Shown here: positions 7,390 to 14,916 of the stretch, one piece after another
How positions within the stretch are numbered: the first letter of the stretch is position 1
Layout of the letters: every line of letters starts with the position of its first letter
Assembly: GCF_009914755.1 (NCBI RefSeq)
Contig: NC_060928.1
Origin: the human T2T-CHM13v2.0 reference genome, Homo sapiens
DNA length: 64,000 nt
Direction: 5' to 3' (one strand)
Made by a program: the position numbers and the translations under genes
Notes under the pieces: model-generated
Seen by the model: the letters and a program-made list of their open reading frames with translations, nothing else
Database searches by the model: none
What the model was told of the DNA's origin: nothing

Positions 7390-9840
7390 CTTAATAGGCA
7401 AAAATTATGATAGTAATGTTATAGTTACAATGTCATAGTAATCAAATAATGTAGTACCACCATAGGAATAGAATTATGTAAATTAAAAGAATAAAATTGA
7501 AGGTATATTAATAAACACATTAATTTTAGGTAAACATAATTTTGTCAGTCATGCTAGGAAATTCCAATAGGAGAAATTGTTCAAAACATAATGCTGAGAA
7601 ATCAGTTTTCAACATGCAAATATAATGGATATACATACATATATGTTAAATAGAATAGAGTAAATGAATAGCCATATAACAAGTAAAAAGAAAGTATTAA
7701 TTAAATTATTTTCACATAGAAAAGCTCAGTGTCAAATTGCATAAATTCTAAATTTCACCAATATTTAATAATACATAGTATAATTTTTTCACAAAAACTT
7801 TCAGCAATAGCAGAGATAACATTTTTCTATTAATCTATTAGCCAGGGGTACTGTGGTACCAAAACCGTGGCTGGGCGCGGTGGCTCACGCCTGTAATCCC
7901 TGCACTTTGGGAGGGCCAAGGTGGGCAGATCACAAGGTCAGAAGATCAAGACCATCCTGGCTAACACGGTGAAACCCGTCTTTACCAAAAATATAAAAAA
8001 TTAACCGGGCATTTTGGCGCGTGCCTGTCATCCCCACTACTTGGGAGGAGAATTGCTTGAACTAGGAAGTCAGAGGTTGCAGTGACCCAAGATTGTGTCA
8101 CTGCACTCCAGCCTGGGCGACAGAGTGAGACTCTGTCAAAAAAAAAAAAAACAAAAAAACAGACAAAATAATCACACATAAAGAACACTATGAACCAAAA
8201 TTCCATATAAATATAGAATTCCTGATGAAATTATTAGAAATGTTAGCAAACTAAATCCAGCAACATGTAAAACTGATTGCATACCATGACCACGTAATAG
8301 TTTGTCATAAATGCAGTGTTGGCTTAATATTTTAAAAATCAACCAACATATTACAAAATGTTACCTGAAGAATAGAAAAAGGTGATAATTTAAATAGACA
8401 CAAAAAGTATGACAGATCCAGCACCCATTCATTATAAAACACTCAGAAATCTACTAGAAAGGAACTTGTTAAGACCTGCTAAAAAGCATCTATAAGAAAT
8501 CAATACCTGGCCGGGCATGGTGGCTCATGCCTGTAATCCCAGCACTTTGGGAGGCCAAAGTGGGCGGATCACCAGGTCAGGAGATCAAGACCATCCTGGC
8601 TAACACGGTGAAACCCCATCTCTACTAAAAATACAAAAAATTAGCCAGGCATGGTGGCGGGCGCCTGTAGTCCCAGCTATTCAGGAGGCTGAGGCAGGAG
8701 AATGGCGCGAACCCGGGAGGCGGAGGTTGCGGTGAGCCAAGATTGCACCACTGCACTCCAGCTTGGGCGACAGAGCAAGACTCTGTGTCACAAAAAAAAA
8801 AGAAAGAAATAAATCAGTAGCTAATAGTATACTTAATGGTAGATGATTGCAGGCTGTATCTGTAAGTTTAAAAATGGAACAAGAATGTACACTTTTTCCA
8901 CTCTGTTTAACATTGTACTGGAAGTATTAGCCAGAAAACTATACTGGATAAATAAATAAAACCCTCAGATTAGAAAAGAATTAGAATACTATTTTCTTGC
9001 CACAATGTTATATAAAAAACTATAATAAATTTACCAAAAATGTACTTGAGTTAATAAACAATTTTATTAATGTCACAAAATACAAGATTAATAAACAAGG
9101 TTAAATAATACTTTTATATAACATAATCAACAGACTGAAAATCAAATTATGAAAAAAATAATGTCATAAAAACCATTTAGGAATATATTAAAAGCAAGTA
9201 CACATGCTTTACATTGAAAATTATTTAAAATGCTGAAAGAAAATTTTAAAACTCTATAAGTAAAGATACATCTAATATTCAAGGTTATCAATGAGAAATA
9301 TTAAGATCAAAATACCCAGCAAATCTATCTACAGATTCAATGCAAATTTCAAAGTAAATTATTTTCTTTCTTTCTTTTTTTTTTTTTTTGAGATGCAGTT
9401 TCGCTCCTGTTGCCCAGGCTGTAGTGCAATGGTGCAATCTCGGCTCACCGCAACCTCTGCCTCCCGGGTTCAAGCAATTCTCCTGCCTCAGCCTCCCAAG
9501 TAGCTGGGATTACATGCATGCCTGTAATTAACCATGCCTGGCTAATTTTGTATTTTTAGTAGAGATGGGGTTTCTCCATGTTGGTCAGGCTGGTCTCGAA
9601 CTCCCGACCTCAGGTGATCCACCCGCCTCGGCCTCCCAAAGTGTTGGGATTACTGGTGTGAGCCACTGCACCTGGCTATTTTCATAGAAATTGACAAGCT
9701 GCTCTTTCTAAATTCTATACAGACATGCAAAAAAATCAAACACATGAGAATTTTGAAAACAAAAATGAAATTTATTTCTGATATTCTTACTAAAATGTTA
9801 TACTAACCAAACAATATGGCATTACCATAAGAATTGATTT
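7390..9840 (+). mobile_element. Old L1M ORF2-derived sequence, interrupted by Alus at 7869-8160, 8509-8810 and 9362-9676
   Basis: Degenerate ORF2 motifs, e.g. taccatgacc, tttaacattgtactggaagtattagccag, atctacagattcaatgcaa. Confidence 0.7.
8509..8810 (+). mobile_element. AluY/Sc8-like element
   Basis: Diagnostics gagatcaagaccatcctggctaacacgg, tgtagtccc, gaatggcg. Confidence 0.85.
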
Positions 9841-9842
9841 TG

Positions 9843-12605
9843 AGGTCCCACCCAGGATTGATACAGAGCCAAAGGAACCCCCACCCCAGCCAAGAAAAAT
9901 GGTGAGTGAATGTGCAACCCCAGGAAACCACACTTCTCTCAAAGATCTTTGCAACCCTTGCATCAGGCGATTCAGTTGTGAACCCACTCCACCAGGGTCT
10001 TGGGTCTGACACACAGAGCTGTGTGGAGTCTTGGTAGAACAGCTGCTCAGACACAAACAGAGTCCCAGGAGCTTTACATACCTCAGCCCTGGGACATCCA
10101 ACAAAGATGACTGCAACTCAGGCAAGGTGGGAGATTGGTGCATACCCCTAGGAAGGGGGCTGAATCCAGGAGGCTGAGCAGCATCAGTTTGTGGATCCCA
10201 CTTCCATGGCACTTCACAAGATAAGACCCACAGATTTGGAATTCCAGCTAGTTACTGGTAACAGTGTAGCACCTGCCTGAGATGGGTCAGAGCTTCTGGG
10301 TGAGGGATGGGCTGCCATATTTGCTGTTCGGATGACAAAGTCATTGCAGCCTGTGGGCTTTGGAGAGTCCAAATGATCTGAATGAGGCAGGGACCCCACA
10401 GCACAGCACAGCTGCTTTACCAAAATGTTGCCAGACTTCTTCTTTAAATGGGACCCCAATCCATTTCCCTCACTGTGTGAGTTCTCCCAGCAGGGGCCTC
10501 CAGCTGCCCCACCCATATTCTATGAACAGAGTTCTGATTTCTCTCTGGGATGGAATGCCCATGGTGGAGGGGCGCCCTGCCACCTTGGCTGTTTGGGGGA
10601 CTAAGCCATTTAAGCCTGAGGGTTTGGAGAGTCCAAGCAGATTTGGGCAGAGGTGGTTCCCCAGCATGCCATGGCTGTTTTGTTGAAGCATAGTCCTACT
10701 GCTTCTTTAAGTGGGACCCCAATTCATTCCCCCTTGCTGGGCGGGTCCTCCCAGCCAGGGCCTCCATCTACTTCTGCCCAAGTTCTAAGGCCAATAGAGT
10801 TCTAATTTCTCCGTGGGATGGAGTGCCCAGGGGGTGCGGTGGGCCACCATTTTTGCTGTTTGGGCAGGTAAGTTAGTGCAGACTGTGGGCTTTGGATAGC
10901 CCAAACCATTTGAGAGCTGAAGGAATCCACAACACAGCACAGATGCTCTACCAAAACACAGCCAGACTGCTTCTTTAAGTAGGCTGCTGACCCCATTCCT
11001 CCTGGTTGGGTGAGACCTCCAATCCAAAGCCTTCAGCCACCTTCTACAGGTGTGTTCAGGCAGGCAACAGGTCAGTATGCATTCTGACCTGACAAAGGGG
11101 CAGGCTGCCATCTTTGCTGTTTCACAGCCTTAACTGGTGATACTTCCAGATACTGAAAAAGCCAAGGGCACCAGGGTCTGGAGCAGACCTCCAGAAAACC
11201 ACAGCAGCCCTACACACAGTGGTCAGACTGTTAAAAGAAAAACAATAAATAACAAAAAATAACCACAATAACCCTATCCAAAGGTCAGCAATCTCACACA
11301 TTGAAATAGATAAGCCCACAAAGATGAGAAGTGGCACAAAAATGATGAAAACTCAAAAGTCAGAGTGTGCCCTTTTCTCCAACTGACAGCAACACCTGTC
11401 CAGCAAAGGATCAGAACCAGGCTGAGGCTGAGATGGCTGAAATGAGAGAAGTAGGCTTCAGAATATGAATACAGATGAACTTGGCTGAGCTAAAAGGGCA
11501 CACTGTAACTCAATGCAACGAAGCTAAGAATCACGATAAAACAATGCAGGAGCTGGCAGCCAAAATAGCCAGTAAGAAGAGAAACACAAACGACTTGATA
11601 GAGCTGAAAAACACACTACAAGGCCTCCACGATGTAATCACAAGTATTAATAGCAGAATAGACCAAGCGGAGGAAAAAACATCCCAGAGCTTGAAGACTG
11701 TCTTCCTGAAATCAAACAGGCAGACACAAATAAAGAAAAAAAAAAAGGAATGAATGAAACCTTAGAATATGGGATTGTGTAGAGAGTGAATATACAACTG
11801 ATGGGGGTAGCTGAAAGAAATGGGGAGAACTGAACCAAATTGGAGAACATATTTCAGGATATCATCCAGGAGAACTTCCTCAACCTAGCTAGACAGGCCA
11901 ACATTCAAATGCAGGAAATGCAGAGAGCCCCACTAAGATATTCCATGAGAAGATTACTCCCAAGACAGGTAATCATCAGATTCTCCAAGGTCAAAATGAA
12001 ATAAAAATATCTTAAGGGCAGATAGAGAGTAAGGCAAGGCCACCTACAAAGAAAAGCTCATCAGACTAACAGCAGACCTTGTGGGGGTTCAGACAGACTG
12101 GTGAAAAAAGTTTTAGTTATAATAGCCATAAACCCTCTTGGAAGGCCTGAGGGTTTTGCAAAACTTCGGTAATAGATCTGGCTGAAGGCGGCCTGGTCAC
12201 TTTACCTTAAGTTATTAACTTAGGGCACAAATACAAACGGATGTAGAGTAGTTTATCTAACTACCTTGTTTACTCATGTGGTCCTCAGACTAACCTTTGA
12301 TCTTGGGTGCTTAATTGCTTTCTACTCGCGAAGTCGGCAATGTCAATTACCTTCTAGTGGTGTTTACTCAAAGTTTTGTTACTTAATCTTTACCAAATAA
12401 ATGCAAGTTTCGCTGGCTGGTTGGTGTGGCGGCTGCTACTCCCTACAGCACCTCTGTTAGTCTGTGAGGCAGCCTGGACCCTCAGTTGCACTGGCAAAGC
12501 AGAATATCTGCATCAGTATACATTGTTCATCCGTCATTGAGTCAGGGTCAGCGGGTCGGACCCCCGCAAGACTTCTCACTGGAAACCCTACAAGCCAGAA
12601 GAGAC
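9843..12605 (+). mobile_element. Older L1P (L1PA13-L1PB-like) 5' UTR plus partial ORF1, truncated at both ends
   Basis: ORF1-like peptide (IELKNTLQGLHDVITSINSRIDQAEE); tcaggatatcatccaggagaacttcc; 5' UTR with ~265-bp internal repeats; interrupted by LTR22. Confidence 0.8.
12080..12568 (+). mobile_element. Solo ERVK-class LTR, LTR22-like (HML-5)
   Basis: TG...CA ends, 489 bp, internal AATAAA, 6-bp TSD agacct/agactt, inserted into L1 ORF1. Confidence 0.75.
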
Positions 12606-14350: not shown

Positions 14351-14647
14351 TTTTTTTTTTTTTTTTTGAGACAGAGTCTTACTCTGTTGCCTAGGCTGGA
14401 GTGCAGTGGCTCAATCTCGGCTCACTGCAACCTCTGCCTCCCGGGTTCAAGCGATTCTCCTGCCTCAGCCTCCTGAGTAGCTGGGATTACAGGCACACAC
14501 CACCACGCCTGGCTAATTTTTGTATTTTTAGTAGAGATGGGGTTTCACCATGTTGGTCAGGCTGGTCTCAAACTCCTGACCTCCTGATCTGCCCACCTCT
14601 GCCTCCCAAAGTGCTGGGATTACAGATGTGAGCCACCGTGCCCAGCC
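14351..14647 (-). mobile_element. AluSg-like element
   Basis: Perfect 15-bp TSD agctattgatttctt at 14336-14350 and 14648-14662. Confidence 0.88.
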
Positions 14648-14916
14648 AGCTATTGATTTCTTATAGATGCTTTTTAGCAGGTCTTACAAGTTCCTTTCTA
14701 CTAGATTTCTGAGTGTTTTATCATGAACGGGTGCTGGATTTTTTATACTTTTTTTGCTTATTTACATTGACACTTTTTTCTATTGTTCAAGTAACATTTT
14801 GTAATATTTTGGTTGATTTTAAAAATATTAAGCCAACACTCCATTTGTGACAAACTATTGCTTGGTTATGGTATGTAATCAGTTTTACATGTTGCTGGAT
14901 TTAGTGTGCCAACATT

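What the first reader, a model, noticed from the sequence alone, without database searches (positions are those of the whole stretch)
8494..14662. Two different Alu subfamilies at the same paralogous nucleotide in both arms
Seen: left Alu 8509-8810 follows aagaaatcaatacct and precedes aaatcagtagct, while right Alu 14351-14647 has TSD agctattgatttctt, i.e. the same target and the same orientation within the arm. The left copy carries AluY/Sc8 diagnostics (gatcaagaccatcctggctaacacgg, tgtagt, gaatggcg) and the right carries AluSg-like ones (gagtttgagaccagcctgaccaacatgg, tgtaat, gaatcgctt). The flanks are unusually similar: 1 mismatch in ~90 bp on one side, ~5 differences in ~90 bp on the other. 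Inference: either exact parallel insertion (rare homoplasy), or arm-to-arm conversion copied the Alu and one copy was later overwritten by a younger Alu.
Basis: partly seen in the sequence, partly recalled or inferred. Interest (0 to 1): 0.72.

Follow-up and report, generated by a model that had tools for sequence, protein, structure and literature searches.

The report
Two Alus, one favoured landing site
Two mirror-image copies of an old duplicated DNA stretch each hold a different type of Alu jumping gene at exactly the same base, likely because that base is a spot where Alus land again and again and because a short repair event likely copied the neighbouring DNA from one copy to the other; both processes are known, and nothing suggests a function.

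Summary
Observation confirmed. The left arm holds an AluY (8509-8807, +) and the right arm an AluSg (14351-14647, -) at the same base, with the same 15-bp target duplication, inside an old L1 ORF2 fragment. A third copy of the arm (chr4:~183,100) has the empty site. The three arms are about equally diverged, but within 80 bp of the Alu the two filled arms differ at 5 of 159 sites against 55 of 447 further out (scan p=0.001): a ~160-bp arm-to-arm conversion tract centred on the insertion nick. The Alu bodies share no private non-CpG base, their CpG decay agrees no better than random pairs, and no donor above 92% was found. New here: six unrelated L1 copies elsewhere carry Alus (Y, Sg, Sc-like, Sp-like) at this exact junction, roughly 0.7% of copies. 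Best reading (0.6): two separate integrations at an endonuclease-favoured site plus break-centred conversion. Rival (0.3): Alu copied between arms, then overwritten. Timing fits neither cleanly; primate genomes decide. Known processes in an unusually readable combination; no function implied.

The parts
8236..9184 (+). Left-arm host segment: decayed L1 ORF2 fragment (reverse-transcriptase region) around the Alu
   Evidence: 88% inverted match to 14919-13973; dispersed copies genome-wide; a homologous copy L017 matches L1 ORF2p residues 635-699, E 4e-20
8434..8493 (+). Left arm, 5' half of the arm-to-arm conversion tract (about 60 bp; boundary approximate)
   Evidence: 5 third-copy-only sites, 1 right-only site, 1 indel
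8494..8508 (+). Left 5' target-site duplication (15 bp)
8509..8807 (+). AluY with A-rich tail; S-type G at Alu position 218
   Evidence: consensus read
8808..8822 (+). Left 3' target-site duplication
8823..8908 (+). Left arm, 3' half of the conversion tract (about 85 bp)
   Evidence: 10 third-copy-only sites, 1 right-only site
13973..14919 (-). Right-arm host segment: the paralogous L1 ORF2 fragment
14663..14721 (-). Right arm, 5' half of the conversion tract
   Evidence: maps to 8434-8493
14648..14662 (-). Right 5' target-site duplication (15 bp)
14351..14647 (-). AluSg-type element with A tail
   Evidence: consensus passages
14336..14350 (-). Right 3' target-site duplication, identical to the 5' copy
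14250..14335 (-). Right arm, 3' half of the conversion tract
   Evidence: maps to 8823-8908

Best explanation
An AluSg and an AluY sit at the same base of two inverted copies of an old L1 fragment whose third copy is empty, likely because each was integrated separately at a position that Alus use repeatedly, and the ~160 bp around that base are nearly identical between the two arms, likely through a short gene conversion started by an endonuclease break at that same site. Shown: same junction, different subfamilies, empty third copy, the conversion-like tract and its centring, and recurrence of this junction in unrelated L1 copies. Inferred: that both Alus came from RNA by target-primed reverse transcription, that the break came from the L1 endonuclease, and the order. 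The conversion either preceded both insertions (empty arm repaired from empty arm) or accompanied the AluY integration (the integration intermediate resolved on the neighbouring arm); these two orders cannot be told apart here.
For: (1) Third paralog has a single copy of the target. (2) The Alus postdate the duplication: 4 of 4 other left-arm AluS-type elements whose two flanks map to the right arm face an empty right site (1755, 2479, 6530, 7869). (3) Site recurrence: of 11 genome matches to target motif plus Alu start, 6 lie in L1 copies at the homologous position with the same 5' and 3' junction, 5 are unrelated sequence; the six hosts are 55-74% alike upstream, so not duplicates, and carry 3 Y, 1 Sg, 1 Sc-like, 1 Sp-like Alu. 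From the other side, 2 of 657 motif matches have an Alu tail at the exact nick and 1 at a nick about 7 nt upstream; corrected for 45 of 99 motif survival this is 0.67% of copies (0.08-2.4%), against 0.01-0.04% parallel insertion in primates (PMC10531181, passages) and 98 subfamily-changing conversions among about 54,000 loci (PMC8230782). A J-like Alu sits within 1 nt of the same junction in an older related copy on chr1/chr12. (4) Bodies look unrelated: 0 shared non-consensus non-CpG bases; 7 of 21 CpGs decayed alike, reached by 20% and 6% of control pairs; no donor above 92% among 40 scored of 3029 and 40 of 1486 candidates. (5) Tract is 60+15+85 bp, centred on the target, with at least 6 sites where left and right share the derived base against L1 outgroups.
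Against: Timing: the tract dates to about 1-2.5% per lineage (arms 6.2%); the joint likelihood at 4% is about 30 times, at 5% about 400 times lower than at 1.5%, while Sg-type Alus in my sample average 13 of 219 non-CpG changes (6%). So conversion before both insertions fits poorly unless this Sg is late; it has only 2 of 219 non-CpG changes but has lost 19 of 23 CpGs, which point in opposite directions. The concerted order fits the dates but needs patchy repair, which I could not test. The S-type base at 218 suits a Y/S hybrid (though 3175 of 57,774 Y-type motifs genome-wide, 5.5%, have it). A copy made while both Alus were fresh would also leave no shared mutations, so point (4) does not exclude the rival. 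The site rate rests on 2 counts and on motifs I designed after seeing this locus. Donor searches scored only 40 candidates each.
Confidence: 0.6

Rival explanations
1. Copy then overwrite: the AluSg inserted in the right arm, a break at the empty left site was repaired from the right arm and copied the Alu with 60-85 bp on each side, and a young AluY later overwrote at least Alu positions 76-199 of the left copy.
For: Explains the centred tract and the identical junctions in one step; the first Y/Sg diagnostic is at 76 and the last Y base at 199, so only about 124 bp need be overwritten and the S-type base at 218 is explained; non-CpG divergence of flanks (5 of 159) and of the Alu outer thirds (8 of 124 as counted, two of them at a CpG) is roughly compatible with one date; AluS-to-AluY conversions are the commonest directed class, 40 of 64 (PMC8230782).
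Against: Needs a subfamily-changing overwrite across both monomers (98 cases in about 54,000 loci, 14 of 52 complete), several-fold to a hundred-fold rarer than a second integration at this junction by my estimate; outer parts of the two Alus show no excess of shared decay (4 of 14 CpGs; control means 3.4 and 1.8), so copying must have followed insertion closely; no donor found.
Confidence: 0.3
2. One Alu inserted before the left/right duplication (or earlier and was lost precisely from the third copy) and one copy was later converted to another subfamily; flank similarity is a separate event.
For: Outside the tract left and right share slightly more derived bases than the other pairs (about 5 against 1 and 3), so a short shared branch is possible.
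Against: Right Alu has 2 of 219 non-CpG changes against about 13 expected at the arms' age (P 2e-4); other AluS-type elements, including older subfamilies, are arm-specific; the tract is left unexplained.
Confidence: 0.05
3. Parallel insertion with flank similarity due only to chance or local conservation, no conversion.
For: The region was picked because the flanks looked alike; the signal rests on about 22 informative sites.
Against: Third copy is more, not less, diverged there (17 of 159 against 26 of 447), which conservation would not give; permutation p=0.001-0.01 allowing any place and any label.
Confidence: 0.05

Closest known systems
Precise parallel Alu insertion (homoplasy; Doronina et al. 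2019 as cited in PMC10531181, passages read)
   Same: Two subfamilies at one base, TSD shift of 0 nt, empty state preserved elsewhere.
   Different: Here between paralogous arms in one genome, with the empty state in a third paralog; the flanks are homogenised, which plain homoplasy does not give.
Insertion hotspots inside older transposed elements (Levy, Schwartz and Ast, PMC2836564, passages read)
   Same: Single positions of an old element used by several Alu types in sense orientation.
   Different: The passages I saw name positions 5824 and 6142 of L1MB3; this site lies in ORF2 between the codons for Ala639 and Asn640. Their supplementary position tables were not read, so it may be listed there.
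Alu-Alu gene conversion changing subfamily (Doronina, Reising and Schmitz, PMC8230782, parts 1-3 of 4 and supplement passages read)
   Same: Same junctions, different subfamily diagnostics, possible Y-S hybrid.
   Different: Their criterion needs orthologs nested in a species tree, not available here; this locus is not among their 11 chr4 rows (their screen excluded repeat-rich flanks).
Non-allelic gene conversion between duplicated segments (general knowledge; search listing only)
   Same: Short tract of near identity between two of three paralogs with shared derived bases.
   Different: The tract is centred on a retroposon target and spans two unlike Alus.

Membership tests
AluY (left element) | Y bases at 76, 86, 93, 98, extra A at 127, 152, 162, 196, 199 | tested here: met
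   against the AluY/AluSx/AluSg consensus read
AluY (left element) | C at position 218 | tested here: not met
   G in the left Alu; 5.5% of Y-type motifs genome-wide have G, so it is an AluY variant or a Y-S hybrid
AluSc8 (left element) | Y-type 5' monomer with S-type 3' monomer (AC at 151-152, S bases at 196 and 199) | tested here: not met
   Sc8 consensus passages; left Alu has the Y bases at all of these
AluSg (right element) | 2-bp deletion at 65-66 with S-type bases at all Y/S diagnostics | tested here: met
   consensus passages (middle of the consensus not seen whole); not Sg7; the extra A at 91 was not assigned to a named sub-lineage
Precise parallel insertion | Same insertion point, TSD shift of at most 1 nt | tested here: met
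Precise parallel insertion | Ancestral empty site exists | tested here: met
   third paralog
Precise parallel insertion | Each arm went from empty to filled on its own branch | not testable with these tools
   no primate genomes in the collections
Precise parallel insertion | No shared private mutations in the two bodies | tested here: inconclusive
   none found, but an early copy would also leave none
Alu-Alu gene conversion | At least three coherent diagnostic differences at one locus | tested here: met
   8-9 coherent differences
Alu-Alu gene conversion | Pre-conversion state seen in related species | not testable with these tools
   needs primate orthologs
Alu-Alu gene conversion | Identifiable donor | tested here: inconclusive
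   best 92% for both; only 40 candidates scored per search
Non-allelic gene conversion tract | Local switch of the paralog tree with shared derived bases and sharp ends | tested here: met

The most novel reading that the evidence does not exclude
One concerted event: an AluY integrating at the empty left site was resolved on the neighbouring inverted arm, taking both flanks and the junctions from the paralog while keeping the Alu core from its own RNA; retroposon integration would thus trigger paralog gene conversion and fake a shared insertion.
Probability: 0.2. Interest if true: 0.65.

Novelty: new member of a known kind. Interest (0 to 1): 0.38.

Why it matters
No function is implied: the site is intergenic and inside decayed L1. 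Its value is as a test case. Shared Alus are used to date duplications and build trees; here a shared-looking Alu postdates the duplication, and one L1 ORF2 position seems to attract exact repeat insertions at about 0.7% of copies, well above the published genome-wide homoplasy rate, so markers nested in old L1 may be less safe than the average suggests. If the concerted reading holds, it links endonuclease cutting to gene conversion between paralogs, testable in existing primate assemblies.

Tried and rejected
AluSc8 for the left element: rejected. AluSg7 for the right: rejected. Recent genomic donor: none found; exact runs of 101 and 83 bp between the right Alu and two search-selected AluSg copies (L052, L051) were judged likely chance because the copies are 91.5% alike overall and the right Alu is close to consensus; not tested further. 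S-type base at 218 as proof of a hybrid: weak, 5.5% background. Local conservation as cause of flank similarity: rejected. Insertion before duplication: disfavoured. The Y control group wrongly kept 3 search-selected hits; they were dropped. Five of the 11 junction matches were dropped as not L1-hosted. Pfam gave only a weak RVT_1 match for 1 of 3 fragments (E 0.0017, below cut-off); the PDB match settled the host. Literature: searches for this locus (ZNF141+ZNF732+duplication; ZNF91+4p16+KRAB) listed no paper on it; searches listed none describing this arm pair; subscription papers and bioRxiv supplements were not searchable, and the supplement of PMC2836564 was not read. The cell-culture precedent for integration intermediates recombining with resident elements (Gilbert et al. 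2005) is recalled; only its citation was seen. A local donor scan of the whole zinc-finger cluster was not done; only the window, 17 kb of the third copy and the fetched loci were compared.
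Full report
Observation. The window holds two inverted arms, 908-9184 and 18926-13973, 80-92% alike in pieces. Aligned in arm orientation, an Alu begins at the same base in both, after a 15-bp target duplication, and ends before the same base. The bodies are 86.5% identical (40 of 284 columns differ). Against consensus text printed in the supplement of PMC8230782 and against groups built from 107 full-length Alus in my data, the left element is AluY at positions 76, 86, 93, 98, 127, 152, 162, 196 and 199 and S-type only at 218; the right is AluSg-type at all of them. 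It is not AluSc8, whose 3' monomer is S-type. The S-type base at 218 occurs in 3175 of 57,774 Y-type motifs genome-wide.

Host and third copy. The flanks are a decayed L1 ORF2 fragment: a homologous copy matches ORF2p residues 635-699, placing the junction between the codons for Ala639 and Asn640. A third copy of the arm lies at chr4 about 179.6-192 kb, collinear with window 908-12604, and has the target once, with no Alu. So the empty ancestral state survives in the same genome.

The flanks record a conversion. Across the arms the three copies form a near star: left-only, right-only and third-only sites are 38/31/31 in 833 columns and 21/23/30 in 404. Within 80 bp of the target (TSD excluded) the counts are 2/3/17 in 159 sites, against 21/29/26 (plus 5 three-way) in 447 further out; Fisher p=0.0005; a permutation scan allowing any place and label gives p=0.0012 for 20-site windows. 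L1 outgroups show that left and right share the derived base at six or more tract sites, TSD included (8450, 8468, 8496, 8841, 8856, 8869). The tract runs about 60 bp upstream and 85 bp downstream of the 15-bp target, so it is centred on it, as break-initiated conversion would be (inference).

The Alu bodies show no common history. No non-consensus non-CpG base is shared; 7 of 21 CpGs decayed the same way, a level reached by 20% (left against Sg/Sc controls) and 6% (right against Y controls) of control pairs. Genome searches with each Alu found nothing above 92% (40 scored of 3029 and of 1486 candidates). Four other left-arm AluS-type elements with both flanks mappable face empty right-arm sites, so the duplication is older than much of the AluS wave and an AluSg cannot easily predate it.

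The site is used repeatedly. Among 33 fetched loci with L1 matches the site could be placed in 25; 3 had an Alu next to it: a J-like element within 1 nt of the junction in a chr1 copy and its 96.9% duplicate on chr12 (one event), and one at a nick about 7 nt upstream. A pattern for target plus Alu start gave 11 genome matches; 6 are unrelated L1 copies with the same 5' and 3' junction, carrying three Y, one Sg, one Sc-like and one Sp-like Alu; 5 are not L1. From the 3' side, 2 of 657 motif matches are filled at the exact nick, both with this same 5' junction, or 0.67% after correcting for motif survival (0.08-2.4%). The arms are several times denser in Alus than the genome, so a few per cent locally is plausible (inference). 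Published comparators: parallel insertion 0.01-0.04% in primates (PMC10531181, passages); 98 subfamily-changing conversions among 46,285 AluS and 8099 AluY loci, 14 of 52 complete (PMC8230782); hotspots inside older elements shared by several Alu types are known (PMC2836564, passages).

Timing is awkward for every model. Per lineage, arms 6.2%; tract best at 1.5%, with likelihood a quarter of that at 3% and one thirtieth at 4%; left Alu 5 of 219 non-CpG changes and 16 of 23 CpGs lost (Y controls median 6 and mean 13); right Alu 2 of 219 and 19 of 23 (Sg controls mean 13 and 16.5). All can be reconciled near 2-3%, roughly the period when AluY arose (inference; no absolute calibration was run), but conversion strictly before both insertions is strained, and copy-then-overwrite needs copying soon after insertion plus a rare overwrite.

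Mechanism. I commit to two separate integrations at an endonuclease-favoured nick plus a break-centred conversion (0.6), split between conversion of the empty site beforehand and conversion during the AluY integration (0.2 for the concerted form, which fits the dates best but needs patchy repair; precedent recalled, not read). Copy-then-overwrite keeps 0.3 because it explains centring, junctions and the base at 218 at once. These weights are judgement from the rates above, not a computed posterior. Primate orthologs, unavailable here, decide.

Verdict. Real, above chance, built from known processes: Alu insertion hotspots in old elements, parallel insertion or Alu-Alu conversion, and non-allelic conversion. 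My searches found no description of this locus. No function is suggested. Interest 0.38.

Noticed in passing
window 1630-1743 / 18106-17993 and chr4 ~190,920-190,807: 13 of 15 consecutive informative sites are left-only: a possible second conversion tract, between the right arm and the third copy.
   Followed up: no
window 9184-12604: The apparent spacer between the arms is not unique: it continues collinearly in the third copy (chr4 182,583-179,656, 79-97%), so the junction of the two inverted copies lies near 12604-12616.
   Followed up: partly
window 12966-13973: An LTR-like element (recalled as LTR13, no call tested the name) with a short target duplication interrupts the end of the right arm; another LTR-like piece at about 12080-12568 is missing from the third copy.
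   Followed up: no
window 14351-14647: The right Alu has very few non-CpG changes (2 of 219; Sg controls 8-19) yet heavy CpG loss (19 of 23), and exact runs of 101 and 83 bp with AluSg copies L052 and L051.
   Followed up: partly
L004:68-1440 and L038:476-1853: A 96.9% identical duplication between chr1 (246.62 Mb) and chr12 (133.11 Mb) that ends inside a J-like Alu; both, and L034 on chr19, are collinear with the arm at 70-80% and may be older zinc-finger-cluster paralogs.
   Followed up: partly
window 26365-26489: Tandem array of about four 32-bp units, 92-93% alike, in ZNF141 intron 1.
   Followed up: no
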